Counted from the first letter of the stretch, positions 30,634-46,096 are shown. The stretch: DNA of 64,000 nucleotides from Escherichia phage ManiWeber_Bas99 (PQ850618.1), one strand, 5' to 3'. Notes: a model not told the origin generated them from the letters alone. A program made the numbers and translations.

Positions 30634-31052
30634 GACAATTCCTCTAAATACTTGATGATGTGATGGATGGACCCGCTCGCGGCGACCATAGCCAGAATCT
30701 CATGCTTAGTATATTCTTTTAATCGCAATGAAGGGTGAACTAAATAATAAGCCTTTTCAGAGTCCACCTTCAGCAACACGAATGACGAGAATTTCCAATC
30801 ACTCCAAGAAGTCAAAAAGCTTTGTTGACCTTTCTCAAATGCGCTCTTGAAAGGAAGAGTGGTGGCCCTTGCAGGCCACGATTCAAAGAACTTCATTTCA
30901 AGCCAAAAGCCGCGCCCTTTCCGGTTGGTGCCGATTACGTCCGGCACACCATCACCCGTCATTGATTCGATTCTTTGAAGCTTCAAGATTGATTCTGAAT
31001 GCTTCTTCAAAGGCACGAATATGTATTTCTGTTCACGGTTATTTGTTGCCAT
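30630..31052 (-). CDS. PD-(D/E)xK nuclease (VRR-NUC-like)
   Basis: Internal start MATNN...; motif GVPDVIG...GRGFWLEMK fits PD...ExK. Confidence 0.5.
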   Translation of the reverse strand: MATNNREQKYIFVPLKKHSESILKLQRIESMTGDGVPDVIGTNRKGRGFWLEMKFFESWPARATTLPFKSAFEKGQQSFLTSWSDWKFSSFVLLKVDSEKAYYLVHPSLRLKEYTKHEILAMVAASGSIHHIIKYLEELS

Positions 31053-33936
31053 CTGGATACACCTGTTTGATAACGTCGACGATGAACATGTCAATGCCTT
31101 CAAGTTTGCGGCCTTTCATCAGGAAGAATGCGCCGTTCCCGACGTTCTCTGCAATGTATTTCCCGTATTTCTGGAACTTCTCTGGACGAATCCTGAAGCG
31201 CATTGGCGAGTCGGTCGAATCGTCCTTGCACATAAGGTCAATGAACTGAGTCTCAAGCTTGTTTCCATACTGGTCAAACTCTGCGTAGCGGCCATCAGCT
31301 TGAAGACCCTTTTTAAGTTTGCCGTGCTTTGTATAAATGCCGCGCTCAAGACGTTTACGGATGCGTGTCGCTTCGTTCTCGTCAGCCAGCACTTTCTTGG
31401 TCAACTTGCCGATCACTATTGCACGCTCGTCATCGCCGACTTCCTTCATCTGGCGTATTGAAGCACCGGAAGTAACGCCAATCAGATAGGGGTCATTATA
31501 TGCCCATCCGAACTTTGTGTGCATCTCTGTAAGGTCGCCGTATTTGACTTCAGCATTGGCCAATGCATCCTTTTGCTTTTGCGTTAAGGTTCCGGCTTCA
31601 CGTGCTTCGATATACTTCATTGCCTTCACCATGCCATATCCTTTTGCGTTCATGATGCCGCCGATTAGCTTTCCGTTAGCGATGGTCCAGTTCATTGAAG
31701 AGTGGTCAGGGTCGATTGGCACATAATCCACGCCTTCCTTCGCAAGTTCACGTAATATCGCAATCGTCTGGTCTTCGTCCTTAGCAGCGCGTAAGCAGGC
31801 AGCGGCAAATTCCAACGGGTAGTGTCGCTTAAGCCACAAGGTCCAGTAGGTCACGACCGCGTATGATACGGAGTGTGACTTGTTAAAGCCCCATGACCCG
31901 AACGTCGCCATCGCTTGCCAAAGCTTTCTTGCATCCGCTTCCGGTACGCCGTTATTTATTGCTCCTGCAACGAAGTCTTCGCCAAGCTTGTTAAAGTATT
32001 CCTCACCCTTACGACCTGACATCGCCTTACGTACAGCGGATGTTTTCGCCCAGTCAAATGAACCAATCTCTTTAACCACGGCCATGATTTGCTCTTGGTA
32101 AAGAAACACGCCGTAAGTCTCTTTTAAGTACGGCTCAAGCTGCGGCACGTCGTACTCAATCGGCGCACGTCCTGCCGCGCGTTCAATGTATTTCTGGGCC
32201 ATACCGGACGACAACGGGCCAGGTCGGCCAAGTGCTGTCAGGTTATCGATTTTGTTAAAGTTATCAACGTGCACAAAGTTGGTTACTGAGCGTACAGCGT
32301 CGCCTTCAAACTGGAAGATGCCTGACATCTTGTTTTCGTTAAGGATGTCAAGGACGCTTTGGTCATCAAGCTTGATTCCGTACAGCGTTTCAGCATCTAT
32401 CACGCCAGTATCAGAAATGATTCCGAGAGTACGAAGGCCCAGCGCATCAAGCTTCAAAAGGTTTAGGTATTCGCTGTCAGGCTTATCGATTTGCGCAATA
32501 CCTTCTGCAGTTACAGTACAGTAATCAGAGATTGGGTCATTACACACAATGATTCCCGCTGCGTGAACACCTGTGTGAGACGGGTGAATCTCAAGGTCAC
32601 CCATGCAACGCGCGGCGTCAGGATATTTCGCCACAAACTCTTGGCCCGTGGTCGTTGTTGCAAAGGTATCCTCCAGGCCGTGACCATAACGGGCGTCACC
32701 GGATGAGTATTCAAGCAGTGCGTTTTTAATGTTGGCCGTTTCGTGGTATCCAATGTTGAACTTCTTACCAACCTGCGCCATTACTGAGTTGGCCTTAAGC
32801 GTGTTGATGTTGCCAAGCTTTGCAACGTTCATTTCGCCATATTTCTCTTTAAGATAATCAAACACCATGTAGCGTTTGGTATCTTCAAAGTCGATGTCGA
32901 TGTCAGGAAGGTCGGCGCGGCTTACGTCGATGAATCGGGCAAACAGCAGCTTATACGGGATTGGGTCCACTTCCGTGATGCCGAGGCAATAGCAAACAAG
33001 TGAACCAGCCGATGAGCCGCGCGCAGGACCGACGAGCATTTTTGTTTTTGCGAATCGCACAAGGTCCGCTACCACCAGAAAGTATGAGTCGAAATCTTTC
33101 AGCTGAATCTGGTGAATCTCTTCGTTGAAGCGGTCCTCATATTCCTGAGTCCATTCTTTGATGTGACCTGCTTTTAGACGGTACTCCATCCCCTCACGAG
33201 CAAGCTTTACCATGTCACCAGCAAGGTGAATAATCGGTGCCTTACGCAATTTCAAGTCAAGTCCGACTATGCCGTTTGCTATGTCAACAGCATTGGCCGT
33301 TGCCTGATCAAGTTCATCTTCAGTCAAGATGCCTTTAAGCTGTTTGCGCAAATCTTCCACGTCAACGATGCAATGCGGCTTGACCGTGTCGCGCACTTCC
33401 CAAGCATAAGCAAAGTCAACGTGCTCAGGTGAAGGCATGTGGTTGTATCCGGTTAAAACCAGCGGCCTTCCACCGCTACGATGAGCCAATGCCTGGCGCT
33501 TTGCCAAAAGGAACGATGATGGGTTGACGTCTATATAGTCGTAGTCCTCTGGCCGCAGCAACTCCACGGCACCGCCACAGAATTTAACGACGCCATCGAG
33601 CGCACCGAACTCTGCACGGGTAAGCCCACCGCGCTGCGTTGAAAGTGTTGTAGCGTTGTAAAAAGATTTTAAGTCAAGGGCCAATATCCAAGCCTTCGGT
33701 TTGAATCCCTTTTTCGGGTCCGCATCAGGGTCGATGATTGGAATCTCCATCCCAAACATAGGCTTAATATCATTTTTCTGGCATTCCTTTTCCCAGCGAA
33801 CGTGACCCCATGTGTTGTTATCAACTAATGCCGCGACTTCGCAGCCCAACTCTTTGAGCCGTGCTATAATTTCAGGATGCCGTCCATAAACTTCTTTGAA
33901 CGTGTAACCGCTGCGAACTCTCAATTGTGGAAACAT
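31039..33936 (-). CDS. dnaE: DNA polymerase III alpha-subunit homolog (DnaE-type)
   Basis: 965 aa; NKSHSVSYAVVTYWTLWLKRHYPLEFAAACL matches the conserved DnaE palm motif; N-terminal PHP region lacks the usual His pair. Confidence 0.85.
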   Translation of the reverse strand: MFPQLRVRSGYTFKEVYGRHPEIIARLKELGCEVAALVDNNTWGHVRWEKECQKNDIKPMFGMEIPIIDPDADPKKGFKPKAWILALDLKSFYNATTLSTQRGGLTRAEFGALDGVVKFCGGAVELLRPEDYDYIDVNPSSFLLAKRQALAHRSGGRPLVLTGYNHMPSPEHVDFAYAWEVRDTVKPHCIVDVEDLRKQLKGILTEDELDQATANAVDIANGIVGLDLKLRKAPIIHLAGDMVKLAREGMEYRLKAGHIKEWTQEYEDRFNEEIHQIQLKDFDSYFLVVADLVRFAKTKMLVGPARGSSAGSLVCYCLGITEVDPIPYKLLFARFIDVSRADLPDIDIDFEDTKRYMVFDYLKEKYGEMNVAKLGNINTLKANSVMAQVGKKFNIGYHETANIKNALLEYSSGDARYGHGLEDTFATTTTGQEFVAKYPDAARCMGDLEIHPSHTGVHAAGIIVCNDPISDYCTVTAEGIAQIDKPDSEYLNLLKLDALGLRTLGIISDTGVIDAETLYGIKLDDQSVLDILNENKMSGIFQFEGDAVRSVTNFVHVDNFNKIDNLTALGRPGPLSSGMAQKYIERAAGRAPIEYDVPQLEPYLKETYGVFLYQEQIMAVVKEIGSFDWAKTSAVRKAMSGRKGEEYFNKLGEDFVAGAINNGVPEADARKLWQAMATFGSWGFNKSHSVSYAVVTYWTLWLKRHYPLEFAAACLRAAKDEDQTIAILRELAKEGVDYVPIDPDHSSMNWTIANGKLIGGIMNAKGYGMVKAMKYIEAREAGTLTQKQKDALANAEVKYGDLTEMHTKFGWAYNDPYLIGVTSGASIRQMKEVGDDERAIVIGKLTKKVLADENEATRIRKRLERGIYTKHGKLKKGLQADGRYAEFDQYGNKLETQFIDLMCKDDSTDSPMRFRIRPEKFQKYGKYIAENVGNGAFFLMKGRKLEGIDMFIVDVIKQVYPDGNK

Positions 33937-34478
33937 TATTTACTCCAGATGTCATATACGCCAATTTGTTGGCAGACTTTGTGCAGTAATATTACGTCGT
34001 CTAATGCACGGTGTTTCTGTTCATATTTTCCGAAATATAATTCATACAGCTCTTGAAGCTTAACTCTTCGGCCAAAAATAGGCAAGGTTTGCTCAACTGT
34101 ACAAATGTTTATTTCTGGAAAATTAACATCATCAAGCGTAAGTCCTTCGCGCTGTAGTGCATAATCAAGAATGTTTTTATCGAACGCATGGTTGTGCGCG
34201 ATAGTGGCATCCGTCTTCTTGAAGATTTCTTTTAGCTGCGGGACAAAATTGATGAATGGTGGATTGCACTCAAGGTCTTCATTTGTTAATCCGGTAATCT
34301 TTGTGATAATTTCTTCAATCACGATTTCAGGATTAATTATGAATTCAAACGTTTCAAGAATCTCTTTGCCGTCTGTCAACAGACCTGCAAATTCAATAGG
34401 GCGCGGCTGCATCCCAAGCGGCGCTTTCGGGTGCACGGTCAATCCGGTTGTTTCGAAGTCATAAGGGAGAAATAACAC
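33936..34478 (-). CDS. DEDDh 3'-5' exonuclease (DnaQ/epsilon-like proofreading subunit)
   Basis: 180 aa; Exo I YDFETTG, Exo II HNHAFDKNIL, Exo III HRALDDV; 1-nt overlap with the polymerase gene. Confidence 0.8.
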   Translation of the reverse strand: MLFLPYDFETTGLTVHPKAPLGMQPRPIEFAGLLTDGKEILETFEFIINPEIVIEEIITKITGLTNEDLECNPPFINFVPQLKEIFKKTDATIAHNHAFDKNILDYALQREGLTLDDVNFPEINICTVEQTLPIFGRRVKLQELYELYFGKYEQKHRALDDVILLHKVCQQIGVYDIWSK

Positions 34479-34491
34479 ATTAGCCTCCTAC

Positions 34492-34532: not shown

Positions 34533-35084
34533 TTATACAGTGTACGGAGTACCGTCTTGATTCAACCGCACGATGAATTTAAGGTCGACACCGATGATTT
34601 CACGAGTATCAAAGATTACATAGTTGTAACGACGCTGACCAGCAATGTTTGGGTTGGTGTGAGAGTCGGTCACAACTTCCTGCGCAACCTGAATGCCTTC
34701 TTCTTTAAAGAACTTGCGCCATTCAGCAAGTTCAGCGGCAGTCACGTGCATACCAAGATGGCTAACCTGATTGTCGTGCGCATCGATGTATTCGATGTTT
34801 TCGTGAATCCAGTTGCAACCTTTTGTATAGTCAAGAATTTCAAGCTCAAGAGGCTTACCAGCGCCGCCATCGGTGCCGTTGCCAGCCTGATAGTTGAAGC
34901 GCAAGTCAGCTTCGTTGGTGCAATCGCCGCGCTGACCCTTAAAGACATCAGCTTCAAATACGCGACCAGTAGCAACAACGTGATCATGGAACCATTCTGT
35001 CAGGCCGATTTTAGCCAGGAAATTCTGTGCGCGCTGAGCACCTGGAATTGACAGGGCGATTTGTTCAATTTTAAAATGTGGCAT
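34533..35084 (-). CDS. VOC (glyoxalase/bleomycin-resistance/dioxygenase) family protein
   Basis: 183 aa; N-terminal MPHFKIEQIALSIPG...F.AKIGL... and ...HLGMHV... resemble VOC beta-alpha-beta-beta-beta modules. Confidence 0.4.
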   Translation of the reverse strand: MPHFKIEQIALSIPGAQRAQNFLAKIGLTEWFHDHVVATGRVFEADVFKGQRGDCTNEADLRFNYQAGNGTDGGAGKPLELEILDYTKGCNWIHENIEYIDAHDNQVSHLGMHVTAAELAEWRKFFKEEGIQVAQEVVTDSHTNPNIAGQRRYNYVIFDTREIIGVDLKFIVRLNQDGTPYTV

Positions 35085-35278: not shown

Positions 35279-35962
35279 TTATTTCCCAAATGGAATATCA
35301 GTACCAGACATAAAGCGCCATGCGCCCGTAATTAAGATATGGCGAATGAAGTCAGCAATTACTTGCGGCTCAGTCTCCAATCCATTCATCAGCGCCTTTT
35401 TCTGGTATTCAGCAGCATACTCAGGAGTCCAGCCGCGAGTCGCGCAAACAGCATCTTCAATCTGTTTGGACATGCCAGTACCACGTAGCTTATTAGGACT
35501 AATAGAAAATACCGTGATCCCGTATTTAGGCGTAAGCTCGTGAGCCATCTGCTTGCTAATCATGAGCGCAGCAGCCTTGGAAGCATTATAACACAAGCTG
35601 GATGTCATAGGAATATGCGCAGCGTTGGAAACGATATTGATCACAAAACCTTTGTTGTCGATAAGACTTTTCAGCGCGGCTTGAGTCGTGTTGACGAAAG
35701 AGAAGGCGTTGGTGTGCATAACGCGATTGAACTCTTCGTAGTTAACATCTTCAAACCAGTTGTTGGAGTTGACGCCAGCACAGTTGATCAAGCCTTCTAC
35801 ATCATATGGGCTTAAAATTTCTTTCATCTGTTTCGCGTCGCGGACGTCATATCCGTATGCTGAATCGATTCCAAGCACGTTATGACCGTAAGCGCCAAGG
35901 GTGTCAAAAATAGATTTACCAAGACCGGAATTGGAACCTGTTACAACAATTACTTTTTTCAT
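35279..35962 (-). CDS. Short-chain dehydrogenase/reductase (SDR)
   Basis: 227 aa; cofactor motif VTGSNSGLGKS, catalytic YNASK. Confidence 0.75.
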   Translation of the reverse strand: MKKVIVVTGSNSGLGKSIFDTLGAYGHNVLGIDSAYGYDVRDAKQMKEILSPYDVEGLINCAGVNSNNWFEDVNYEEFNRVMHTNAFSFVNTTQAALKSLIDNKGFVINIVSNAAHIPMTSSLCYNASKAAALMISKQMAHELTPKYGITVFSISPNKLRGTGMSKQIEDAVCATRGWTPEYAAEYQKKALMNGLETEPQVIADFIRHILITGAWRFMSGTDIPFGK

Positions 35963-36027: not shown

Positions 36028-36900
36028 CTATTTATTGAAATTAATATTGTGGGTGTTGACGAGACGTTCACACATGGCGCTGTAAACACCATCGTCGTGT
36101 ATAGAGTCTTCGTGCTTCAGGCCGCTGATTGCAAAGCGTGTAAGCTTGACAATCTTAAGCTCGAACAGATGCCACATGTGGTAGTCTTCCGGCGTTTTCA
36201 ACGTTACGCCATTAGGGAAAAGCACCTGCATAACCTGGCCAACCATCACGGCATTATCGCCATAGACAGCGTTGCGCTCACGGAAGGTTGCTGCCATTGC
36301 ATCAAGAATATCGGCGGCAGTTGCCGGAGATTGTTCAACTTCCACAGCCTTAGTCTCTTCTTGCCCTGTTGCGCTTGGATCAATTGCTAATTGTTGCACC
36401 ACTTCACCTGCCTTGCAAAGATTAAATGTAAAAGCGATTTTATTTTGAGCAACGGAATTATAATACAATGCTTCATCTTGCATCCGCGCGAGCACGTCTT
36501 GTCGGTCGTCGAATACATTGATGATTCGATAATCGCCGTGCCGCAATGCGTGCGATAGCCATGCAGATTTCATAATAGTTGATGGACGTTTGTCGCCATA
36601 GTCTCTCATCTTGATTGTAAATTCATCAAAAGGAAAAACATTGTCCAGACGTTCAAAAGTCACTTGTCTGTATTTTTCTGGCCTTGCAGTCCAATATTCA
36701 ACCGCCTCACCGCGAAGAGATGCCGACTCTACTGCTGATGCAATGTGAGGATAGAACTGATCATAACCAATACCGCTGTGATAGTCATCATAGTCTGACA
36801 ACGGACCTGCCACCTTGATGCGGTCTAAGCGCCAACGGTCATCAAACAGCGTTCCGTCAAGGTCGAATACGTTTAATATTTGGTTATTTTTAATACTCAT
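36028..36900 (-). CDS. HAD-superfamily phosphatase-like protein with C-terminal all-alpha domain
   Basis: 290 aa; HAD motif I FDLDGTL near the N-terminus, later VFDDRQDV; C-terminal half helical, possibly MazG-like. Confidence 0.45.
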   Translation of the reverse strand: MSIKNNQILNVFDLDGTLFDDRWRLDRIKVAGPLSDYDDYHSGIGYDQFYPHIASAVESASLRGEAVEYWTARPEKYRQVTFERLDNVFPFDEFTIKMRDYGDKRPSTIMKSAWLSHALRHGDYRIINVFDDRQDVLARMQDEALYYNSVAQNKIAFTFNLCKAGEVVQQLAIDPSATGQEETKAVEVEQSPATAADILDAMAATFRERNAVYGDNAVMVGQVMQVLFPNGVTLKTPEDYHMWHLFELKIVKLTRFAISGLKHEDSIHDDGVYSAMCERLVNTHNINFNK

Positions 36901-37706
36901 CCCTTTGACACTCCATCTTTAGCAACTGGATTGTTTGTGATTGGCGCGGCATCCCAAAACTGGATGCGCAACTCTTCTTGCTGTGCCGTGGTATCCATCC
37001 AATCACGATACCACGGGCAATGGGCTTTGCCATGACGAGGAAACGCGCATTTACCCATACCGATGCATTGCGGCTGTAGTAAAGGATTAGCCCATGGGTG
37101 CACCTTGAGGACTTCCGCAACCATTGCGCGAAATACTTCTTGATACTCACCTTGTGTGCGCGTGCACAAGCGGTTTGACGCCATCTGCTGCAGCGTGCGC
37201 AAGTTGAACTTTGCCATGATATGCGTTTGCATATTAGAAGGCAACACGGCACGTGCATCCTGAATCTCTGCGCCAGCCGCGCGAAGTTCTTGATACAAAG
37301 CATCGATAGTCGCCATTGCATCATCCCATTTCTCTGCCAATGAGTGATGTCTTATGTGCACATCATCAAATGCATTTTCATCATTGCAGTCAGAAGGGTG
37401 CTCGAATGCCTTCGGACGAATCGCATCAAATGCAGAAGATTCCTGAGCGCGGCTGGTGCGTTCTTGGTATGCACCTGTGCGTGTGCGTACCATCTGATGA
37501 GTCATATTCTTTGATACAGCGGTGATGTCAAAGATATAGTCCACAAAGTCAAAAGGCGACTTGATGGTGTCAAGCATGTAGCGCCAATGCTCTTGCTTCT
37601 CTGATTCCGTCATCTCAGAGACAGGCTTACCAGTCATGCGCGTGTTCTTTGTTTCCAGCAAAAGGTCAAGTGCATCTTGGGTGTATCGAATTAATTCAAC
37701 TTTCAT
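36897..37706 (-). CDS. ThyX-like (flavin-dependent thymidylate synthase homolog), divergent
   Basis: 269 aa; ...SPFDFVDYIFDITAVSKNMTHQMVRTRTGAYQERTSRAQ... aligns with the ThyX RHR...S.RY block but reads RTR; ...AVLPSNMQTHIMAKFNLRTLQQM... matches the second ThyX block. Confidence 0.55.
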   Translation of the reverse strand: MKVELIRYTQDALDLLLETKNTRMTGKPVSEMTESEKQEHWRYMLDTIKSPFDFVDYIFDITAVSKNMTHQMVRTRTGAYQERTSRAQESSAFDAIRPKAFEHPSDCNDENAFDDVHIRHHSLAEKWDDAMATIDALYQELRAAGAEIQDARAVLPSNMQTHIMAKFNLRTLQQMASNRLCTRTQGEYQEVFRAMVAEVLKVHPWANPLLQPQCIGMGKCAFPRHGKAHCPWYRDWMDTTAQQEELRIQFWDAAPITNNPVAKDGVSKG

Positions 37707-37719: not shown

Positions 37720-38166
37720 TTAACGGTAATTTACTAGTTGCTGATCACCAGAGAAGGTGCAATGATAAACGAATTGTGCGTTATAAAGCAACTGAAAACT
37801 TTTCTTTGGTTCATTATTAGAACTCATTGATGTAAAGATTTCTGCACCAGAACGATTTTCACCAATCAGGTTGATAAAGCCGCCAGTTGAACGAGGCTGA
37901 ACGAAAGTGAAACGTTGCATCCACGGAGTGCGGTTGGCACCTTTCCCTGTGAATCCTTGAATCTGAATATTCAGGCCTTCTTGCTCGTTCACACCGATGT
38001 AAGTGGTAATTGTTGCGCCAGTCGTTGCTGCGGTCTTGCCGTCCATCGCTTCGCAATCGTAAACAGCGATTGAATCTGAAGTACGGACAGCGGCTTCAGT
38101 CGCTTCCATATACATGGTTCCGAGAATAGCAGTTGCGGCAAGCGCGATTCCAGTGATTCGTTTCAT
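37720..38166 (-). CDS. Secreted protein
   Basis: 148 aa; signal peptide MKRITGIALAATAILGTMYMEATEAA. Confidence 0.4.
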   Translation of the reverse strand: MKRITGIALAATAILGTMYMEATEAAVRTSDSIAVYDCEAMDGKTAATTGATITTYIGVNEQEGLNIQIQGFTGKGANRTPWMQRFTFVQPRSTGGFINLIGENRSGAEIFTSMSSNNEPKKSFQLLYNAQFVYHCTFSGDQQLVNYR

Positions 38167-38231: not shown

Positions 38232-39227
38232 TTATTTATTAGCAATATAAGCAAATTTTTGATAGTTATTTGCTTTGATGAGTTTTTCAACTTCAACAAG
38301 GTCATGAGCAACGTCATCAAGCAAAATGTTTCGCCAAGTAGCGAATCGACCGACACTAAATACGTTCAAATCCATGGTCAGCTGTAGGAGTAGAGCGTGT
38401 CGCAAGTCTTTCGGAATGTCGACAATCTTGCCATACTTCTGGTCGACCTTTTCAACTTCTTCGAGAGCGATGTCACTCCATGAGAGGCCAAAGGCCGTCA
38501 ACACTTCGTCGACTTCTGCGCGCAGCTTGATGTCACGGTAACGAGTAATGCCGCCAGCGGCTTCAACTGCGGCTTCACTTACGCTAACCAAAGGAATTGT
38601 TTCAATGATCAGCGTGTCACCAGTGATTGATGCGCGGTAAGTTCTGACGGAGTAGTCAGGAAAGTAAATGGTTTGATACAGTTCACACTTGCGTTTAATC
38701 TTAAAGCGGTAAACACGAATGTTTGCCTTGTCGAATGAGAAATCAATCTTTTGATCAATCCCAGCAAGCTTCATTATGACTGGCAGCGGCGATGTGTTGA
38801 TGATTGGCGTCTCGCTATAGCCGCAAAGAGTATCAACAGGAGTATTAAAGAATATGCGGTCACCCAGTTTGTCGACAAGCTGATCATAAAAGTCATCAGG
38901 CGCAATATAACGCGTTGCAGTTTTAAGCTTCATGATTGAACGGCTGCCAAACTGATTGGTGACCTTCATGGAATACATATTGGCAAGGTTGATTGGGCAA
39001 TGGTCGTGGTAGTAGTTGCCGCGAAAATACACAGCCTTGTCAACTGTCACGGCTTTAAAAGGGATTCCGGTAATACGGCTTACTTCTTCGCTGCGAAAGC
39101 GTAGCAATGCCTTGTGCTGTGGCGCTCGCTCCCCTGCTTCGTACACAATAGAGTTCGGGAAGTGACACGCGGTAATAAGTCCTGCCAAACCGCCGCCGAT
39201 AATCATTACAGGTTGTTTCATGTTCAT
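38232..39227 (-). CDS. FAD/NAD(P)-binding oxidoreductase (possibly Glf-like)
   Basis: 331 aa; N-terminal Rossmann motif VMIIGGGLAGL; C-terminal ...GRFATWRNILLDDV... resembles UDP-galactopyranose mutase-type flavoenzymes. Confidence 0.5.
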   Translation of the reverse strand: MNMKQPVMIIGGGLAGLITACHFPNSIVYEAGERAPQHKALLRFRSEEVSRITGIPFKAVTVDKAVYFRGNYYHDHCPINLANMYSMKVTNQFGSRSIMKLKTATRYIAPDDFYDQLVDKLGDRIFFNTPVDTLCGYSETPIINTSPLPVIMKLAGIDQKIDFSFDKANIRVYRFKIKRKCELYQTIYFPDYSVRTYRASITGDTLIIETIPLVSVSEAAVEAAGGITRYRDIKLRAEVDEVLTAFGLSWSDIALEEVEKVDQKYGKIVDIPKDLRHALLLQLTMDLNVFSVGRFATWRNILLDDVAHDLVEVEKLIKANNYQKFAYIANK

Positions 39228-39362: not shown

Positions 39363-40208
39363 TTATTCCGCTTGATCACCGTCTTCAGCATCGTCGTTGG
39401 ATTCAACATCGACAAACTCGATGTGACCCATCTCTTCCAGCTTGCTCAGGTAGGAGCGAACGGAAGCGCCAAACAGTTGATCTTTAACTTTTTCGCCCAG
39501 CTCATCGATAGACTGTGCCACACCAACTTCGCCTTCTTTGATCGCCGCCAGAACGCGTCCACGGGTGGAATGCTCTTGCGGCTGGCTCAGGCCGTTGCCA
39601 GTGTAGATGAAGTGAGTGGCTTTTGCACGACGCTGACCGTTTGCCTTTTTAGCAGCCTTACGTTCTGCGATGGCTTTGCGACGTTCTTCAGCTTCTTTCT
39701 TACGCTGTTCTTTCTGCTGTTCTGCAGCTTCTTTAGCCGCAATCTTAGCAGCTTCACGCTCTGCCTTGCGTTTCGCTTTAGCTTCTTCTTTGGCCTTTTC
39801 TTTTTCGGCCTTCGCTGCAGCACGGGCTTGATCACGCTCTGCTTTCTTGGCCGCAGCCTGCTCAGCTTTCAGGCGCTTGGCTTCTTCTTTAGCCTTTGCC
39901 TTTTCGATTTCTTTTGCTGCTTTAGCGGCTTCACGCTCTGCTTTCTTAGCAGCAGCCTTTTCTGCACGCTCTTTAGCTTTCTTAGCTGCTTCTTCAGCAC
40001 GCTTCTGAGCCTTCTCATCAGCAGCCTGCTTGCGTTTCAACGCAGCTTCTTCACGCTTGGCTTGTTTTTCCTGCTCACGCTTCTGGCGTTTTTCTTCGGC
40101 TTCTTTCTTTTTAGCCAGGCGTTTTTCTTCAGCCACGCGACGACGTTCTGCTGCGGCTGCTTGTTTTTCTTCTTTAGATAATACTTTGATTGCTTCGGCC
40201 ATATTCAC
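39363..40208 (-). CDS. K/E/A-rich charged helical protein with small C-terminal globular domain
   Basis: 281 aa; about 190 aa of (A/E/K/R)-only repeats consistent with a single long alpha helix or TolA/histone-H1-like tail. Confidence 0.5.
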   Translation of the reverse strand: MNMAEAIKVLSKEEKQAAAAERRRVAEEKRLAKKKEAEEKRQKREQEKQAKREEAALKRKQAADEKAQKRAEEAAKKAKERAEKAAAKKAEREAAKAAKEIEKAKAKEEAKRLKAEQAAAKKAERDQARAAAKAEKEKAKEEAKAKRKAEREAAKIAAKEAAEQQKEQRKKEAEERRKAIAERKAAKKANGQRRAKATHFIYTGNGLSQPQEHSTRGRVLAAIKEGEVGVAQSIDELGEKVKDQLFGASVRSYLSKLEEMGHIEFVDVESNDDAEDGDQAE

Positions 40209-40361: not shown

Positions 40362-41546
40362 TTAACGCGCTTTCAAATCACGGTACACGGTCAGATTCTT
40401 CTTAGCACGGGTGATAGCGGTGTACATCATCTTGGAGTACGGAACGCCGCGCAAGATTTCTTCCAGCACGCACACATTGTCCCACTCGCTGCCTTGCGAT
40501 TTGTGCACCGTGATGACATAGCCGTAGTCCATCCCGCCAACAGCACGTTGCGCTTCTTTGCGCACTTCCTGATCAGTAGAGAAGGAAAGAGGATTAATCT
40601 TTACCTTTATATCTTTACCATCAGTCAATGAACGCAAGTTGACATACATTATTTCATTCGACTCATCTTCATCCCTTTCAAAGTCCGGCACTGGCTCATA
40701 GCTAATAACAATCCCTTGCTCGCCATTACAGAATCCTGGCCCGTGCTGGTTGAAGGTGCAAATAACTTTCTCGCCGATTCCTGGCATTGGCGTTATACGT
40801 CCGCTCACTTGCCGTAATAATGAATTCCATTTATCTTTGGTGCTATTATAGGAGCAAATAATTTGATCATCTTCGCCCATGAATTTCTTCAATGCAGTAA
40901 CGCGCGGCGATTCTGCCAATACTTTGACGTCATCGTATTCACGCGGAGGAAGGCGGTTGCCTTGGCGCACGAAGAAGGAGGCGCGGATTATATTGGACTC
41001 TTTCCCTTGCCGCATGATTTCTGTTAACAGTACGTCAACGGCATCTTCAGTAAAGTAGGCGGCGGCTTTTACCGGAGGGACTTGTCCAATGTCGCCTAAT
41101 GCCAGGACAGGGATGCGGTGATCAAGAAGGCGCTCTGTGTCCCACTCGCCAACCATCGACGCTTCATCGAGTACAACAAGGTGCGGCCTTTCATCCAGCT
41201 TTGACTTTCTCGAAAAGATTGGCTCATTGTCGTCATTTACGCCGCGCACGTTATAGATGAACTGGTGAAGGGTCTTAGCGCCACGACAGCCTTTTTGCTT
41301 TAATCGGCTTGCAGCCTTTCCGGTCGGCGCAATATAGATAGCTCCATACTCACCGACACAACGGCGCACAATCTCGCGAGCAATAGAGGTTTTACCAGTT
41401 CCTGCATAGCCAGCGATGAAAAACACGCGCTTCGTCGTTTTACCGTCCTGCAATCGCTTGTACCATGCAACGGCTTTCTCGATGGCGTCGATTTGTTGCG
41501 CGTTAAACTGAATCACTGGCTCATCATTAAATTCTGGAATGTTCAT
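40362..41546 (-). CDS. Dda/RecD-like SF1 DNA helicase
   Basis: 394 aa; Walker A GYAGTGKTS, Walker B VVLDEASMV, C-terminal VITVHKSQGSEWD motif. Confidence 0.75.
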   Translation of the reverse strand: MNIPEFNDEPVIQFNAQQIDAIEKAVAWYKRLQDGKTTKRVFFIAGYAGTGKTSIAREIVRRCVGEYGAIYIAPTGKAASRLKQKGCRGAKTLHQFIYNVRGVNDDNEPIFSRKSKLDERPHLVVLDEASMVGEWDTERLLDHRIPVLALGDIGQVPPVKAAAYFTEDAVDVLLTEIMRQGKESNIIRASFFVRQGNRLPPREYDDVKVLAESPRVTALKKFMGEDDQIICSYNSTKDKWNSLLRQVSGRITPMPGIGEKVICTFNQHGPGFCNGEQGIVISYEPVPDFERDEDESNEIMYVNLRSLTDGKDIKVKINPLSFSTDQEVRKEAQRAVGGMDYGYVITVHKSQGSEWDNVCVLEEILRGVPYSKMMYTAITRAKKNLTVYRDLKAR

Positions 41547-41872: not shown

Positions 41873-41973
41873 TTCAGGCGACCTTTGTTAGTGCGGAAAT
41901 ATTTTCTGATAGTATAATTGCAGATATAGTATAAAGCAAAGTAAATCGAAATTGTGAACTAAATGGTAAATAT

Positions 41974-42006
41974 TGTTGACTTTGTATCACTCAATATTAT
42001 ACTGCA
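41974..42006 (+). promoter_or_regulatory. Sigma70-like promoter for the primase operon
   Basis: TTGACT-(16)-TATACT in the divergent intergenic region upstream of 42033. Confidence 0.45.
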
Positions 42007-42032
42007 GGTATTGATCACCGAAGGAAAGAAAG

Positions 42033-43115
42033 ATGGCTAGTTTAAGAGAAGAAGCAAAAATAATCGAAGAGTTTTTAACAGAACTCCAAAGAGGCATTCC
42101 AGAAGATGAGCGCGTCATGACGGTGTTTGCGCCTGAAGCAACGGTGCAGACTGACGAGCGCGGCAAGAAGATTAACAGCAGCTTCTGGCCTAAGCCTTGG
42201 AAGTTGGGCAAGCCGCTCATGCAGCACCAAAACGGCTATGCCTGCATCAGTTCAATGCGTAAGTCTCCCAACCCGAAGACGGGTGAGATGCGATACTGGC
42301 GTACAGAGTCAGCCTTTGGTCACGGTATGGCGATGATGGTCGACGACATCGGTCACGGTAAAGGGTCCAAAGGCGATTTAGATTTGGAATTCTTTTTCGA
42401 GCGACTGAAGCCGACTGTCATTGTCGAGACGTCACCGAACAACCACCAGCTGTGGTACTTCTTTAAAGAACCAATTGACCATCTTATTCAGTTCAAAGCA
42501 TTCCTTGGGTCTTTCGTAAACATGGTACTCAAGAAGGGCGGCGACAACACGATTAAAGACGTAACGCGCGTGGGCCGTGTTCCTGGGTGCATCAACAACA
42601 AGCGCGTGACTCACGACGGCCCCTATAAATATGTCGATGAGAACGGCGACCCGTTCCGCTGCCGACTTGTCCATGCAGATTACTCCTTGCGCTACACCAT
42701 CGAAGACATTTGTCAGGCATTCGGCTTTCACGTTGTAATGCCGCAAAAGCGTGAGATTCAAATTGACGTCGATGAATACAAATACGATGCTGTTTGGTAT
42801 AAGATAGCCCAGCAGATTCTAGCGCGCAACAAGATGGGTGAAGGGTCTGATGGCGACGTTATCGAGAATATGTCAGGTAAGTGTCGCATAATCTGTCCTT
42901 GGGGTGAAGAGCACACCAACGGCGACCCGTATGGCGCTTACTTTCGCGGCCCTATCCCTGGTGCAGAACATGAATTTGTGTTCGGTTGCGCCCACGACTG
43001 TCACCGGAAAGGGGAAGGCAAGAAAGGTTGGACCGCTTTTGTTGAAGCAATCGTCATGCCTTATATTGAGAATCAACTTGACATGATAAATCGTCGTGCA
43101 GGTGGCATAAAATAG
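42033..43115 (+). CDS. Primase, archaeo-eukaryotic (AEP/PrimPol-like) type
   Basis: 360 aa; acidic MMVDDIGHG motif, ETSPNNHQLWYFF motif, C-terminal Cys/His cluster CPWGEEH...CAHDCH. Confidence 0.5.
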   Translation: MASLREEAKIIEEFLTELQRGIPEDERVMTVFAPEATVQTDERGKKINSSFWPKPWKLGKPLMQHQNGYACISSMRKSPNPKTGEMRYWRTESAFGHGMAMMVDDIGHGKGSKGDLDLEFFFERLKPTVIVETSPNNHQLWYFFKEPIDHLIQFKAFLGSFVNMVLKKGGDNTIKDVTRVGRVPGCINNKRVTHDGPYKYVDENGDPFRCRLVHADYSLRYTIEDICQAFGFHVVMPQKREIQIDVDEYKYDAVWYKIAQQILARNKMGEGSDGDVIENMSGKCRIICPWGEEHTNGDPYGAYFRGPIPGAEHEFVFGCAHDCHRKGEGKKGWTAFVEAIVMPYIENQLDMINRRAGGIK

Positions 43116-43320: not shown

Positions 43321-43323
43321 AAG

Positions 43324-43614: not shown

Positions 43615-43615
43615 C

Positions 43616-43879
43616 ATGGGCGCTTTCCGTAACGAGTTCATCTGGAACGTTACCAGCAATCTCTCGACTTGTCCTAACTGTGCGAGCGATGTTATCAAGG
43701 TGCGGCAGCATCGCAACGCGGAGGAAGGTGCCTGGGAAGATGGCGACCTTGTAGAGTGCCAGTGCTGCTCTCATGAAGGTGTTGTTGAGCTTCAAGCTGG
43801 TGAAGGTTGCCCACCAGCAGAACGCACGGCACGCGTTGAATGGGATGCGACAGACTCCATTGGTGATCCTCAACAGTAA
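43616..43879 (+). CDS. Zinc-ribbon protein
   Basis: ATG after AGAGGTG; CPNC...CQCC Cys pairs. Confidence 0.35.
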   Translation: MGAFRNEFIWNVTSNLSTCPNCASDVIKVRQHRNAEEGAWEDGDLVECQCCSHEGVVELQAGEGCPPAERTARVEWDATDSIGDPQQ

Positions 43880-44289: not shown

Positions 44290-44425
44290 TAGTTCACCAG
44301 TTATATTGCTTTAAATTGAGTTTTACTATATTAATATACAACGCCAGATTTCTGGCGTTTATTTACCGCACCCTGAAAGGATATATCCATGCAACAATAT
44401 AACAAAGCCGTATCAGGAGGATTAA

Positions 44426-46096
44426 ATGTCAATTAATAATGACAATCTTCCAGAGGATACAGGTGATGAATTTGGTGCAATCTTTGACGAAATTCAAGAT
44501 GCAGGCGTTTCGGAAGAAATGCAGGCAGCAGAGCAGCAAGGCACCAGAGCTAAAATCAGCCTTCAACATAAAGCCGTTGAAAAAGATTCAGAGCGCATGG
44601 AATGCTACGGTGAAGAAGACTTGGTTGAAAGAGCACGCTTGCTCGCCTCACTTCAGGTAATCAAGTTCCCTCACTACAAGCCTACCAAAGATGACTTCGT
44701 TCTACAGGCAGACCGGACGAGTGACATGAACCGTTATGCGGTTTTCGACGCGTTGTTTGATAAGGGAAGTGGCATTGTTCCATTCCCTCACAAAGATACT
44801 TTTCGTGGGCGCTTAGTCGACCATCGCGGCGAAACATTCACTGACCGTACCTTGGAAGTCACAGAGATAGTTGCCGCTGTCGACGCAGCAGGGCTGTCCA
44901 ACCCAAACTCACGTCAGGTCGCTCAATCCTATAAGGAATGGGCCATGCGTTATCAGCGCGACGACCTGATGGACTTCTTCTACAAGAAGCTGCCTGAATG
45001 GGACGGTACTGCGCGCATCGAGAAATACCTTATCGAGCTATTCCGACCGTTCGATACAGAGTTAAACCGACGAATCGGTGTGTATTTTTGGCTATCGCTC
45101 TATAACCGCCTGACCAACCCTGGCTGTCAAGCGCCAATCTCCATCGCGCTCATCGGCGGCCAGAACGCAGGGAAGAGTTATTTTAGCAAGCTGCTTTGCG
45201 AAGCTATTATGAACGACCGCCACGCAACACCGATTCCGTTGAACTTAGCCGCGCAAAACTTCAACCCGTTCTTGCGCGCCATCACGGGTCGCTCCATTAT
45301 CGCGAACGTTGGCGAGATGACAGGCTTTAAAAAGGCTGACATCGAAAACATGAAAGCATTCCTGACTAAGACGGAAGACGACCTGGACTTCAAATTTGAA
45401 GATACACAGGTTAAACCACGCCAGTGGATTGCTATTATGGACGGCAACGAATACGCAGGCATGCAGCGTGATGACACGGGCAACCGTCGTGTGTATCCTA
45501 TCTTTGTTGGCCAACTTGCCGACAAGGACGGGCAGCCGAACTGGTCGAAAGACTTCCAAGCTGACCTTTCCACTTTGAAAGAAGACGTTTGGCAGTTGAT
45601 GGCTGAGTGCGCTGCGTGGATGGAGAAGCACGGCGAAGCAGGCTATAACGCGTTTGTTGGTGAAACATCTCGCATGCTTACTGAGTTCAGTAAAAACGAA
45701 ATGGAACGCGCTCGCGGCGTTATCCGTGATGAGATGGTTGACAACGACCTTGTTGAAGTCGTCATCACCGCGCCTTATGACCGACATCACAGCGGACGCT
45801 GGCACATCACCAGTGGTGCTATTGCTATGGGATTCAGAGCGAAGTGTGGCAAGTCGCCTTTCTCTCGTACCCTTGCGCCACACATGTCGAAGCTTGGTTT
45901 TGAGCCTGCAACCTATCGCAACCAGCGCGGTTACTTTACGCCGCTGATTAAGAATGAAGCAGGAGAATACATTTCTGATTTGATGACCATCTTAGCGTAT
46001 CTTATTCGCGATGAGTCTGACCCTGAAGATATTGAATTCTTGAAGAAGGTTATCGAGCGTAAACGTTCTTTGGGAAGAGATAAGGATGAATTCTGA
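44426..46096 (+). CDS. VirE-like / primase-associated P-loop NTPase
   Basis: 556 aa; Walker A LIGGQNAGKS; size and architecture resemble VirE/D5-type helicases. Confidence 0.5.
   Translation: MSINNDNLPEDTGDEFGAIFDEIQDAGVSEEMQAAEQQGTRAKISLQHKAVEKDSERMECYGEEDLVERARLLASLQVIKFPHYKPTKDDFVLQADRTSDMNRYAVFDALFDKGSGIVPFPHKDTFRGRLVDHRGETFTDRTLEVTEIVAAVDAAGLSNPNSRQVAQSYKEWAMRYQRDDLMDFFYKKLPEWDGTARIEKYLIELFRPFDTELNRRIGVYFWLSLYNRLTNPGCQAPISIALIGGQNAGKSYFSKLLCEAIMNDRHATPIPLNLAAQNFNPFLRAITGRSIIANVGEMTGFKKADIENMKAFLTKTEDDLDFKFEDTQVKPRQWIAIMDGNEYAGMQRDDTGNRRVYPIFVGQLADKDGQPNWSKDFQADLSTLKEDVWQLMAECAAWMEKHGEAGYNAFVGETSRMLTEFSKNEMERARGVIRDEMVDNDLVEVVITAPYDRHHSGRWHITSGAIAMGFRAKCGKSPFSRTLAPHMSKLGFEPATYRNQRGYFTPLIKNEAGEYISDLMTILAYLIRDESDPEDIEFLKKVIERKRSLGRDKDEF

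What the first reader, a model, noticed from the sequence alone, without database searches (positions are those of the whole stretch)
31039..46096. Large replication gene set with two helicase classes and an AEP-type primase
The phage encodes a bacterial-type replicative polymerase (DnaE homolog whose PHP region lacks the usual His pair) with a separate DnaQ-like proofreader. It also encodes SNF2 and Dda/RecD-like helicases, a PD-(D/E)xK nuclease, an SSB-like protein, an AEP-type primase and a VirE-like NTPase. A DnaE-type polymerase paired with an AEP-family rather than DnaG-type primase is an uncommon combination.
Basis: partly seen in the sequence, partly recalled or inferred. Interest (0 to 1): 0.35.

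Follow-up and report, generated by a model that had tools for sequence, protein, structure and literature searches.

The report
Known Wifcevirus phage DNA replication module
This stretch is the ordinary, already described DNA-replication gene block of an E. coli phage of the Wifcevirus/PB1-like lineage, and its pairing of a bacterial-type polymerase with an archaeal/eukaryotic-type primase is real but common among phages.

Summary
The window is a Wifcevirus (E. coli myovirus, 96.5% identical to phage Bas98).
- a DnaE-type polymerase with its catalytic Asp triad intact and the PHP histidines lost;
- an adjacent DEDDh DnaQ-like exonuclease;
- a Dda/RecD-like helicase;
- a RepB'-family AEP primase (Pfam E=4.5e-36; the predicted fold matches RepB' and S-2L PrimPol);
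- a VirE/VapE SF3 helicase homologous to SaPI self-loading Rep helicases.

The SNF2 helicase and the PD-(D/E)xK (VRR-NUC-like) nuclease are real but lie left of the stated coordinates. No SSB could be found.

The claim that the combination is uncommon fails. The same syntenic module occurs in about 360 sequenced phages (Pbunavirus, Bcepfunavirus, Carpasinavirus and others). Two of four other DnaE-bearing phage groups sampled also use AEP primases. Published surveys say that mixing bacterial and archaeo-eukaryotic replication parts is the rule in phages. A 2025 Pbunavirus paper already describes this gene set.

Minor new details:
- The primase carries a conserved Cys/His zinc module, with no Pfam or PDB match, where RepB' has its helix bundle.
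- The DnaE lacks the tau-binding domain and the internal beta-clamp-binding segment.
- A duplicated iteron/AT-rich element outside the region is a candidate origin.

The parts
25136..26098 (-). ATP-dependent DNA ligase (probable Okazaki-fragment sealing); outside the finding
   Evidence: Weak Pfam hits: DNA_ligase_OB_2 1.1e-4 and DNA_ligase_A_M 6.7e-3, both below the curated cut-offs. The Bas98 ortholog is annotated as ATP-dependent DNA ligase.
29110..30633 (-). SNF2-family translocase/helicase (outside the stated coordinates)
   Evidence: Pfam SNF2-rel_dom 8.6e-22, Helicase_C 5.8e-11.
30630..31052 (-). VRR-NUC-like PD-(D/E)xK nuclease, 140 aa, overlapping the ends of both SNF2 and DnaE
   Evidence: Invariant E29, D38, E52-x-K54 and Q76 in 5 orthologs. 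hhalign against the Vibrio phage VRR-NUC protein: 89.8%, E=1.8e-6. phrog_2165. Pfam VRR_NUC 0.031 in one ortholog; RecU 0.1.
31039..33936 (-). DnaE-type (C-family) DNA polymerase, 965 aa. Degenerate PHP domain; no tau-binding C-terminal domain.
   Evidence: Pfam and PDB Pol III alpha 3e-85. Catalytic D345, D347 and D497 align to E. coli D401, D403 and D555. The PHP histidines are replaced by Q and R. The QADMF segment and the C-terminal ~90 aa of E. coli alpha are absent.
33936..34478 (-). DnaQ-like DEDDh 3'-5' exonuclease; its stop codon overlaps the DnaE start by 1 nt
   Evidence: RNase_T 9.6e-22. ExoI, ExoII and ExoIII motifs present. PDB 2p1j PolC exonuclease domain 4.2e-6.
34533..35084 (-). 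183-aa protein of unknown function (only a weak glyoxalase-like hit)
   Evidence: Pfam Glyoxalase_4 E=0.091 only. Absent from LBL3.
35279..35962 (-). FabG-like short-chain dehydrogenase (accessory, not replisome)
   Evidence: adh_short 2.6e-31. Annotated as a moron (accessory gene) in Bas98.
36028..36900 (-). HAD/PNKP-type phosphatase domain protein
   Evidence: HAD_PNKP 5.3e-8, residues 11-142. The C-terminal ~150 aa is unassigned.
36897..37706 (-). Flavin-dependent thymidylate synthase ThyX
   Evidence: Pfam Thy1 1.2e-29.
38232..39227 (-). Conserved 331-aa Rossmann-motif (flavoprotein-like) protein, function unknown
   Evidence: N-terminal IIGgGLAGL motif. Conserved in LBL3, FoX6 and PCSE1. 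Only weak N-terminal PDB hits to amine oxidases, E=0.13. phrog_4828.
39363..40208 (-). K/A/E-rich 281-aa protein with a small C-terminal domain and an acidic tail; not an SSB by any profile
   Evidence: Sequence. phrog_4765, unknown function. No Pfam or NCBIfam family.
40362..41546 (-). Dda/RecD-like SF1B helicase
   Evidence: AAA_30 1.9e-22, AAA_19, UvrD_C_2 6.2e-13, PIF1.
41873..42032 (.). AT-rich divergent intergenic region between the two replication gene blocks
   Evidence: Sigma70-like promoter TTGACT-16-TATACT at 41976-42003(+). No iterons or hairpins above chance. The cumulative GC-skew minimum of the window lies here.
42033..43115 (+). RepB'-family AEP primase: catalytic domain about residues 40-237, linker helix, C-terminal Cys/His zinc module about residues 280-325, terminal helix
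   Evidence: RepB_primase 4.5e-36, and all 36 homologs match. Invariant D104/D105, Q139, D171, D176, R179, R182 and C288/H294/C319/H321. Model pLDDT 87.9. Foldseek: 6zp9 3e-8, RepB' 3h20 1.3e-7.
43616..43879 (+). Small 87-aa protein with two CxxC pairs (zinc ribbon) between primase and helicase
   Evidence: Sequence. Weak A2L_zn_ribbon hit, E=0.0075.
44426..46096 (+). VirE/VapE-type SF3 helicase, candidate self-loading replicative helicase/initiator
   Evidence: VapE-like_dom 2.6e-28. Profile against PDB 7pds (SaPI Rep-type hexameric helicase) 1.6e-19. Walker A GGQNAGKS and the GNRR motif are conserved.
2238..2503 (.). Iteron/AT-rich element, copy A (candidate origin or regulatory region; outside the finding)
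   Evidence: Opposed arrays of GATACGGAT flanking an AT-rich core. Conserved in 28 of 28 Wifcevirus records.
54353..54597 (.). Iteron/AT-rich element, copy B, collinear with copy A
   Evidence: The core is 24% GC.

Best explanation
This is the conserved replication and nucleotide-metabolism module of a Wifcevirus, an E. coli myovirus distantly related to the Pseudomonas PB1-like Pbunavirus phages.

Two gene blocks diverge from a 160-bp AT-rich promoter region at 41.9 kb.
- The leftward block encodes a Dda/RecD-like SF1B helicase, ThyX, a PNKP-type phosphatase, accessory enzymes, a DEDDh exonuclease translationally coupled to a DnaE-type polymerase, then a VRR-NUC-like nuclease and an SNF2 translocase. 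A ligase lies further left.
- The rightward block encodes a RepB'-family AEP primase and, 1.3 kb further on, a VirE/VapE-type SF3 helicase.

Most likely mechanism:
1. The VirE-type protein, like its SaPI Rep homologs, forms a hexamer that loads itself at an origin and unwinds DNA 3'-5'.
2. The AEP primase makes primers. Its Cys/His zinc module plays the accessory-domain role that the helix bundle plays in RepB'.
3. The DnaE-DnaQ pair extends and proofreads. The inactive PHP domain probably serves as the docking site for the exonuclease, as in E. coli alpha-epsilon.
4. The ligase seals the nicks.
5. SSB, and any sliding clamp, come from the host.

Shown here: the family memberships, the catalytic residues, the predicted fold, the synteny and the distribution. 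Inferred: all activities, the division of labour among the three helicases, and dependence on the host.

The DnaE-plus-AEP pairing is a normal, widespread phage arrangement, not an oddity.
For: - Identity of the phage: 96.5% nucleotide identity to Bas98 and to WFC over the whole region.
- Gene families.
- Primase: RepB_primase 4.5e-36. RepB' aligns at the DD pair and the VVETSPxNYQxW strand. Q139 is invariant, matching the motif II Gln specific to the RepB' family, and the motif IV Arg is present (PMC5862659). AEP fold by Foldseek.
- Helicase: VirE is homologous to 7pds, a self-loading SaPI helicase shown to be a hexamer with 3'-5' polarity and an iteron-binding C-terminal domain (PMC9371898).
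- A fused AEP-Zn module-SF3 helicase in Vibrio phage 1.021.A supports functional coupling of the primase to an SF3 helicase.
- Synteny in LBL3, BcepF1, FoX6 and PCSE1.
- Distribution: 364 records with the primase, 375 with full-length DnaE.
- AEP primases in other DnaE-bearing phages.
- Literature: mixing of replication parts is typical and AEPs go with SF3 helicases (PMC4889955). The same module is described for Pbunavirus Banzai (PMC12390725).
Against: - No biochemical data exist for any protein of this lineage.
- No SSB, clamp or clamp loader was found, so reliance on the host is assumed rather than shown.
- The DnaE lacks the segment carrying E. coli's internal beta-binding motif and the tau-binding domain, so how processivity is achieved is unknown.
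- RSF1010 RepB' is an origin-specific primase that acts at hairpins in leading-strand mode only (PMC8567376), so general lagging-strand priming by this relative is an extrapolation.
- The zinc module has no significant match in PDB (best E=1.8) and none in Pfam.
- The sample of other DnaE-bearing phages is small (four groups).
Confidence: 0.85

Rival explanations
1. One reading: the module is an unusual hybrid replisome, and the DnaE-AEP pairing is a rare combination worth special attention.
For: DnaE is a minority polymerase among phages: 1,373 of 50,697 records. In cells, DnaE always works with DnaG (established knowledge).
Against: The pairing is found in about 360 sequenced phages of this lineage and independently in actinophages. 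Published surveys state that mixing is the rule (PMC4889955). The gene set has already been described (PMC12390725).
Confidence: 0.08
2. The RepB'-like protein acts as RSF1010 RepB' does. It would be an origin-specific initiator primase that starts leading strands at a few defined structured sites, while lagging-strand priming is done by host DnaG or is not needed (strand-displacement or recombination-driven replication using the Dda-like and SNF2 proteins).
For: Family membership and catalytic-motif identity with RepB'. RepB' primes only at the ssiA and ssiB hairpins, in leading-strand mode (PMC8567376). The phage encodes recombination and repair-type helicases and a VRR-NUC nuclease.
Against: The accessory domain differs from that of RepB' (a zinc module instead of a helix bundle). 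No ssi-like hairpins were found next to the gene. The homologous AEP-Zn unit is fused to an SF3 helicase in a Vibrio phage, the typical layout of fork-associated primase-helicases (PMC4889955). A ligase is encoded, which suggests Okazaki-fragment processing.
Confidence: 0.15
3. The replicative helicase is not the VirE-like protein but host DnaB or the Dda/RecD-like SF1B helicase. The VirE-like protein would then act only as an initiator, as a primase accessory factor, or in another NTPase role.
For: Several databases annotate the VirE-like protein as 'DNA primase' rather than as a helicase. Only the ATPase core (residues 190-361) aligns to the solved SaPI helicase. The function of the N-terminal 190 aa and the C-terminal 150 aa is unassigned.
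Against: Homologs of this family are demonstrated self-loading helicases (PMC9371898). VirE-family ATPases are the predicted replicative helicases wherever they accompany AEPs (PMC4889955; PMC5862659). Walker A and the GNRR motif are conserved.
Confidence: 0.15

Closest known systems
Replication module of Pbunavirus (PB1-like) Pseudomonas phages, e.g. LBL3 ORF53-74 and Banzai gp051-077
   Same: Same genes in the same order: SNF2, small nuclease-like ORF, DnaE, DnaQ-like exonuclease, PNKP, ThyX, Rossmann-motif ORF, K/A/E-rich ORF, Dda-like helicase, then the divergent primase and VirE-like helicase. The primase is about 64% and the DnaE about 58.5% identical at the protein level. This module is described in PMC12390725.
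   Different: Wifcevirus adds a FabG-like SDR and a 183-aa ORF between the exonuclease and PNKP. It lacks LBL3 ORF69-71 upstream of the primase. About 8 kb of small ORFs follow the VirE-like gene, where LBL3 has a non-coding gap directly after it.
RSF1010 RepB' primase (PDB 3H20/3H25), prototype of the RepB' AEP family
   Same: Pfam family PF16793. The DD catalytic pair and the VVETSPxNYQxW strand align. Gln replaces the motif II His. The fold matches (Foldseek 1.3e-7). Two-domain logic: a catalytic domain plus an accessory domain joined by a long helix.
   Different: The accessory domain is a Cys/His zinc module, not the PriCT-1 helix bundle. The partner helicase is an SF3 VirE type, not the SF4 RepA. 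The protein is encoded by a 68-kb lytic phage rather than a small plasmid with ssiA and ssiB hairpins, and none was found near the gene.
SaPI Pri/Rep systems (PriRep5, Rep1): AEP primase plus self-loading SF3 helicase with an iteron origin
   Same: The VirE/VapE ATPase core is homologous to 7pds (1.6e-19). A primase gene lies upstream of the helicase gene. The genome carries iteron-like arrays flanking AT-rich cores.
   Different: In SaPIs the origin lies immediately downstream of rep. Here the candidate elements are 8 kb downstream and 42 kb away. No winged-helix domain could be demonstrated in the C-terminus. The phage also brings its own polymerase.
E. coli Pol III core (alpha-epsilon)
   Same: A C-family polymerase with a catalytically degenerate PHP domain working with a separate DEDDh proofreader; the genes here are translationally coupled.
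   Different: The phage alpha is 965 aa against 1160 aa. It lacks the tau-binding domain and the segment carrying the internal clamp-binding motif QADMF. It has lost all the N-terminal PHP histidines. No theta subunit, clamp or clamp-loader genes are present.
Actinophage DnaE modules (Mycobacterium phage SirHarley, Gordonia phage IDyn)
   Same: DnaE combined with an AEP-type primase and an SF3-type helicase. SirHarley also has a FabG-like gene and ThyX beside DnaE.
   Different: The AEP there belongs to the Prim-Pol family (PF09250) and is fused to D5_N/SF3 in one 850-980-aa protein. No separate DnaQ gene is seen next to DnaE in those records.

Membership tests
RepB' family of the AEP superfamily (Pfam PF16793) | Significant match to the family profile above the curated cut-off | tested here: met
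   124.9 bits against a 24.3-bit cut-off, E=4.5e-36, residues 40-237. All 36 aligned homologs match, best 1.2e-59.
RepB' family of the AEP superfamily (Pfam PF16793) | AEP catalytic fold | tested here: met
   AlphaFold model pLDDT 87.9. Foldseek top hits are the S-2L PrimPol AEP domain (3e-8) and RepB' 3h20/3h25 (1.3e-7 and 2e-6). All further meaningful hits are AEPs. This is a predicted structure, not an experimental one.
RepB' family of the AEP superfamily (Pfam PF16793) | Motif I acidic pair (RepB' D77/D78) | tested here: met
   D104 and D105 are invariant in 36 sequences and align to the RepB' DD pair.
RepB' family of the AEP superfamily (Pfam PF16793) | Motif II with conserved Gln in place of His (family-specific, PMC5862659) | tested here: met
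   In SP-x-N-x-Q, Q139 is invariant while residue 138 varies among H, Y and F. RepB' reads SPKNYQ at the aligned position.
RepB' family of the AEP superfamily (Pfam PF16793) | Motif III Asp (RepB' D134) and motif IV Arg | tested here: inconclusive
   Invariant D171, D176, R179 and R182 lie downstream in GGDxTIxDxxRxGRxP. The residue-by-residue equivalence to D134 was not aligned by any tool used here.
RepB' family of the AEP superfamily (Pfam PF16793) | C-terminal helix-bundle (PriCT-1) accessory domain, as in the prototype | tested here: not met
   The C-terminal 120 aa is helix, three short strands, then helix, with invariant C288, H294, C319, H321 and C/H324. No Pfam family. No PDB fold match, best E=1.8.
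RepB' family of the AEP superfamily (Pfam PF16793) | De novo primer synthesis | not testable with these tools
   Needs a biochemical assay.
UL52/PrimPol-type or DnaG-type CHC2 primase zinc finger | C-x(n)-H-x(n)-C-x(n)-C ligand pattern with profile or fold similarity | tested here: inconclusive
   The C-x5-H-x24-C-x4-(C/H) pattern is present and is conserved in a 26%-identical Vibrio phage primase-helicase. There is no Pfam hit, no PDB hit, and only marginal BFVD hits, E>=0.015, to multidomain primase/helicase proteins. The resemblance to UL52 and PrimPol is from memory only.
C-family DNA polymerase (DnaE / Pol III alpha) | Palm and finger domains and the catalytic Asp triad | tested here: met
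   DNA_pol3_alpha 3e-63 and finger 1e-37. D345, D347 and D497 align to E. coli D401, D403 and D555.
C-family DNA polymerase (DnaE / Pol III alpha) | PHP domain with metal-binding histidines | tested here: not met
   QLRVRSG against E. coli HLRVHSD. The replacements are conserved in 5 of 5 lineage members. The PHP profile match is weak: 26.6 bits against a 26.4-bit cut-off.
C-family DNA polymerase (DnaE / Pol III alpha) | Internal beta-clamp-binding motif and C-terminal tau-binding domain (E. coli type) | tested here: not met
   The QADMF segment falls in an alignment gap, and the protein ends after the OB-fold region. A divergent clamp-binding motif elsewhere cannot be excluded.
DnaQ-like DEDDh exonuclease | ExoI, ExoII and ExoIII motifs with His | tested here: met
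   D7/E9 (DFETTG), D100 (AHNHAFD), H156/D161 (HRALDD). RNase_T 9.6e-22.
VirE/VapE SF3 helicases (SaPI Rep-like self-loading helicases) | Family profile match and conserved P-loop and Arg motifs | tested here: met
   VapE-like_dom 2.6e-28. 7pds 1.6e-19. GGQNAGKS and GNRR are invariant.
VirE/VapE SF3 helicases (SaPI Rep-like self-loading helicases) | C-terminal winged-helix domain binding iterons at an adjacent origin | tested here: inconclusive
   The C-terminal 150 aa is unassigned by any profile. Iteron-like arrays exist at 2.2-2.5 kb and 54.35-54.6 kb, not next to the gene. Relatives have their own inverted short repeats right after the gene.
VRR-NUC / PD-(D/E)xK nucleases | E...D...(D/E)xK catalytic signature with profile similarity | tested here: met
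   Invariant E29, D38, E52 and K54. hhalign 89.8%, E=1.8e-6. Pfam support is only marginal.
Single-stranded DNA-binding proteins (SSB, gp32, gp2.5, DUF2815 types) | Profile match to any SSB/OB-fold family | tested here: not met
   No hit in Pfam, PHROGs or NCBIfam for any ORF from 30.6 to 56.4 kb. None is annotated in Bas98. A structure-only relative cannot be excluded.

The most novel reading that the evidence does not exclude
The lineage may run a minimal, clamp-loader-free Pol III-type replisome.
- A self-loading VirE/SaPI-Rep-like SF3 helicase would fire from the duplicated iteron/AT-rich elements (window 2238-2503 and 54353-54597), acting as two origins.
- A RepB'-type AEP would have swapped its helix-bundle accessory domain for a zinc module not yet classified, becoming a general fork primase.
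- It would feed a DnaE-DnaQ core that lacks the tau-binding and canonical beta-binding elements.

If so, this would be a compact and experimentally tractable hybrid replisome in E. coli. It might relate to the very short infection cycle reported for two Wifcevirus isolates in a study cited by PMC11990801.
Probability: 0.25. Interest if true: 0.45.

Novelty: already known. Interest (0 to 1): 0.15.

Why it matters
As a gene inventory it adds little. The module is annotated in RefSeq and GenBank for dozens of Wifcevirus and hundreds of Pbunavirus genomes, and it has been discussed in print.

Its practical value is that Wifcevirus phages now grow on engineered E. coli K-12 (the BASEL collection). 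A DnaE/DnaQ + RepB'-type AEP + VirE-type helicase replisome could therefore be dissected genetically and biochemically in the best model host.

The small details found here give concrete starting points: the zinc module replacing the helix bundle, the loss of the tau- and beta-binding segments, and the duplicated iteron/AT-rich elements.

Tried and rejected
- SSB: searched every ORF from 30.6 to 56.4 kb against Pfam, PHROGs and NCBIfam and found none. The 281-aa acidic-tailed protein is K/A/E-rich low-complexity sequence with no OB-fold signal.
- The 331-aa and 281-aa ORFs as candidates for the PD-(D/E)xK nuclease: rejected. One has a Rossmann motif and the other is low complexity. The nuclease is the 140-aa ORF next to SNF2.
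- Origin features in the 41.9-kb divergent intergenic region: only a promoter-like site, with repeats no better than chance.
- Classifying the primase zinc module: single-sequence and profile searches against PDB, Pfam on 36 members, and Foldseek of a domain-only model against PDB and BFVD gave nothing significant.
- Function of the 331-aa protein: a profile search against PDB gave only the generic dinucleotide-binding motif.
- The supplementary tables of Kazlauskas 2016, which would give a census of polymerase-primase pairs, are not held. A four-lineage sample was used instead.
- A canonical beta-clamp-binding motif in DnaE: the aligned segment is missing. No attempt was made to find a divergent motif.
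Full report
**What the window is.** The 15-kb region is 96.5% identical at the nucleotide level to Escherichia phage HermannAdler_Bas98 and to vB_EcoM_WFC. It matches 27 records over at least 80% of its length, all E. coli or Shigella phages of the genus Wifcevirus. These are 66-72-kb myoviruses distantly related to the Pseudomonas Pbunavirus (PB1-like) phages (PMC11990801).

**Check of the observation.** ORF listing and Pfam scans confirm five genes inside the stated coordinates:
- A 965-aa DnaE-type polymerase at 31039-33936(-): DNA_pol3_alpha 3e-63, finger domain 1e-37, PDB Pol III alpha 3e-85.
- A 180-aa DnaQ-like exonuclease at 33936-34478(-): RNase_T 9.6e-22. It has the full DEDDh set, DFETTG / AHNHAFD / HRALDD, and its stop codon overlaps the DnaE start by one base.
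- A Dda/RecD-like SF1 helicase at 40362-41546(-).
- A RepB_primase-family protein at 42033-43115(+), E=4.5e-36.
- A VapE/VirE-like NTPase at 44426-46096(+), E=2.6e-28.

The remark about the PHP domain is correct. The N-terminus reads QLRVRSGYT where E. coli has HLRVHSDYS. The same replacements occur in the DnaEs of LBL3, BcepF1, FoX6 and PCSE1, while the polymerase Asp triad is intact.

Two listed genes are real but lie left of the stated start. SNF2 is at 29110-30633(-). The PD-(D/E)xK nuclease is a 140-aa ORF at 30630-31052(-). It has invariant E29, D38, E52-x-K54 and Q76 across five orthologs and a profile match to a VRR-NUC protein (89.8%, E=1.8e-6). Pfam alone gives only marginal hits.

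The SSB-like protein could not be found. No ORF from 30.6 to 56.4 kb matches any SSB family in Pfam, PHROGs or NCBIfam. The curated Bas98 genome annotates no SSB, clamp or clamp loader.

The region also holds ThyX, a HAD/PNKP-type phosphatase, a FabG-like dehydrogenase, a conserved Rossmann-motif protein and a K/A/E-rich protein.

**The primase.**
- All 36 aligned homologs (52-100% identity) match RepB_primase.
- Invariant residues include D104/D105, S134, N137, Q139, D171, D176, R179, R182, P184 and N188-R191.
- A profile search against PDB aligns the DD pair and the strand VVETSPxNYQxW to RSF1010 RepB'. There D77, D78 and D134 are the catalytic residues (PMC8567376).
- The invariant Gln at the motif II position is the signature of the RepB' and PolpTN2-like families. 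A conserved Arg follows in motif IV (PMC5862659).
- An AlphaFold model (pLDDT 87.9) matches the cyanophage S-2L PrimPol AEP domain (E=3e-8) and RepB' (1.3e-7). Every further meaningful hit is an AEP.

It differs from the prototype in its accessory domain. RepB' has a PriCT-1 helix bundle that is required for dinucleotide formation (PMC8567376). The phage protein instead has helix, three short strands, then helix, with invariant C288, H294, C319 and H321 and a C/H at position 324. This module has no Pfam family, no significant PDB fold match, and only marginal matches to multidomain phage primase/helicase proteins in BFVD. The same CPWxEEHT...C-HH-x2-C module is kept in a 26%-identical domain of Vibrio phage 1.021.A. 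There it is fused to an SF3 helicase domain in one 864-aa protein. Alternation of PriCT and zinc-binding domains after AEP domains has been noted for related families (PMC5862659), so this is a variant detail, not a new kind of enzyme.

**The helicases.** The VirE-like protein matches the hexameric SaPI helicase structure 7pds (1.6e-19 with a lineage profile). Those proteins are self-loading SF3 helicases with 3'-5' polarity. Their C-terminal winged-helix domain binds iterons on both sides of an AT-rich origin (PMC9371898). VirE-family ATPases are the predicted replicative helicases wherever they accompany AEPs (PMC4889955 and PMC5862659). The Dda-like and SNF2 proteins are more likely accessory.

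**Is the combination uncommon?** No.
- The primase has homologs in 364 phage records, 304 of them at 60-80% identity and mostly Pbunavirus. Full-length DnaE homologs occur in 375 records of the same groups.
- The module is syntenic in LBL3, BcepF1, FoX6 and PCSE1.
- DnaE occurs in 1,373 of 50,697 phage records. Four other groups were sampled. Mycobacterium phage SirHarley and Gordonia phage IDyn carry AEP Prim-Pol/D5_N primase-helicases. Streptomyces phage Lika and Bacillus phage Andromeda carry DnaG-type primases with DnaB.
- Kazlauskas et al. [quoted passage not shown]
- A 2025 paper on Pbunavirus Banzai lists the same set: Pol III alpha and epsilon homologs, a primase, a ligase, a SaPI-Rep-like self-loading helicase, a Dda-like helicase and an SNF2/Ino80-like translocase (PMC12390725).

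**Likely mechanism.** Shown here: family memberships, catalytic residues, predicted fold, synteny. Inferred:
1. The VirE-type hexamer loads itself at an origin and unwinds the DNA.
2. The AEP primase, with its zinc module acting as the initiation and accessory domain, lays down primers.
3. DnaE-DnaQ extends and proofreads, with the inactive PHP domain acting as the docking site for the exonuclease, as in E. coli alpha-epsilon.
4. The ATP-dependent ligase at 25136-26098 seals the nicks.
5. The host supplies SSB and possibly the clamp.

The DnaE ends after the OB-fold region. It lacks the tau-binding domain and the segment that carries E. coli's QADMF clamp-binding motif, so how it achieves processivity is open.

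**Beyond the finding.** Looking for an origin, I found nothing notable in the 41.9-kb divergent intergenic region except a sigma70-like promoter. Two other non-coding loci are more interesting: 2238-2503 and 54353-54597.
- Both carry tandem 9-mers, GATACGGAT, in opposite orientations, flanking a 90-100-bp core of about 24% GC.
- The 15-mer TACGGATGATACGGA occurs 9 times against 0.04 expected. All ten exact 9-mers in the window lie in these two loci.
- The loci are collinear over about 260 nt and are conserved in Bas98.
- The element is 95-99% identical, unannotated and present at several places in all 28 Wifcevirus records.
- FoX6, BcepF1 and LBL3 have their own short inverted repeats directly after their VirE-like gene.

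This layout is what an origin for a SaPI-Rep-like initiator-helicase would look like. Each element also sits just upstream of a promoter-like site, so an operator or upstream-element role is equally open. A second motif, AATTTGCACTAT, occurs 11 times on one strand within 54789-56282 and is unexplained.

**Verdict.** This is a known, widely conserved phage replication module: low interest, already known. The zinc module and the iteron elements are modest leads.

Noticed in passing
window 2238-2503 and 54353-54597: A duplicated ~260-nt non-coding element. Tandem GATACGGAT 9-mers in opposite orientations flank a 90-100-bp core of ~24% GC. The 15-mer occurs 9 times against 0.04 expected. The element is conserved at 95-99% in all 28 Wifcevirus records and is unannotated. 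It is a candidate replication origin for the VirE/SaPI-Rep-like helicase, or an operator region for the promoters just downstream.
   Followed up: partly
window 54789-56282: Eleven copies (5 exact) of AATTTGCACTAT, all on the + strand, within 1.5 kb. They span intergenic DNA and minus-strand ORFs, right next to iteron locus B and at the cumulative GC-skew maximum. Function unknown.
   Followed up: partly
window 42870-43010 (primase residues ~280-325): The RepB'-family primase carries a conserved Cys/His module (C288, H294, C319, H321, C/H324) in place of the PriCT-1 helix bundle. It has no Pfam family and no PDB fold match. The same module occurs fused to an SF3 helicase in Vibrio phage 1.021.A (L006:15854-18448).
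   Followed up: yes
window 31039-31500 (DnaE C-terminus): The phage-lineage DnaEs end after the OB-fold region. They lack the tau-binding domain and the segment holding E. coli's internal clamp-binding motif, and no clamp or clamp-loader genes are annotated in the genome.
   Followed up: partly
window 38232-39227 (-): A 331-aa protein conserved across the whole lineage, with an N-terminal dinucleotide-binding GxGxxG motif and a C-terminal FSvGRFAtWRniLLDD motif. It lies two genes from the flavin-dependent ThyX. There is no family assignment, and only weak amine-oxidase-type N-terminal hits (E=0.13).
   Followed up: partly
window 35279-35962 (-); L004:4951-5646; L009:10130-10840: A FabG-like short-chain dehydrogenase sits next to DnaE and ThyX in Wifcevirus, in Xanthomonas phage FoX6 and in the unrelated Mycobacterium phage SirHarley, but not in Pbunavirus LBL3. 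This is a recurrent neighbourhood with no known rationale.
   Followed up: partly
window 39363-40208 (-): A 281-aa protein with ~190 aa of K/A/E-rich sequence (like a charged single helix), a small C-terminal globular part and an acidic tail (DDAEDGDQAE). It is annotated 'TolA protein' in some records and 'putative structural protein' in LBL3.
   Followed up: partly
window 37720-38166 (-): A 148-aa ORF with a signal-peptide-like N-terminus (MKRITGIALAATAILG...) embedded in the replication gene block; no family match.
   Followed up: no
window 43616-43879 (+): An 87-aa ORF with two CxxC pairs (zinc ribbon; weak A2L_zn_ribbon hit, E=0.0075) between the primase and helicase genes.
   Followed up: no
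window 36028-36900 (-): The 'polynucleotide kinase' ortholog matches only the HAD phosphatase domain (residues 11-142). No kinase domain was detected and the C-terminal ~150 aa is unassigned.
   Followed up: no
L004:19360-19513 (Xanthomonas phage FoX6): A 12-nt tandem array (CAACCCCATCAT, then CAACCCCGGCAA variants; about 10 overlapping copies of a 36-nt reference) inside the annotated small ORF gp79, just beyond the repeat-rich non-coding stretch that follows the VirE-like gene.
   Followed up: no
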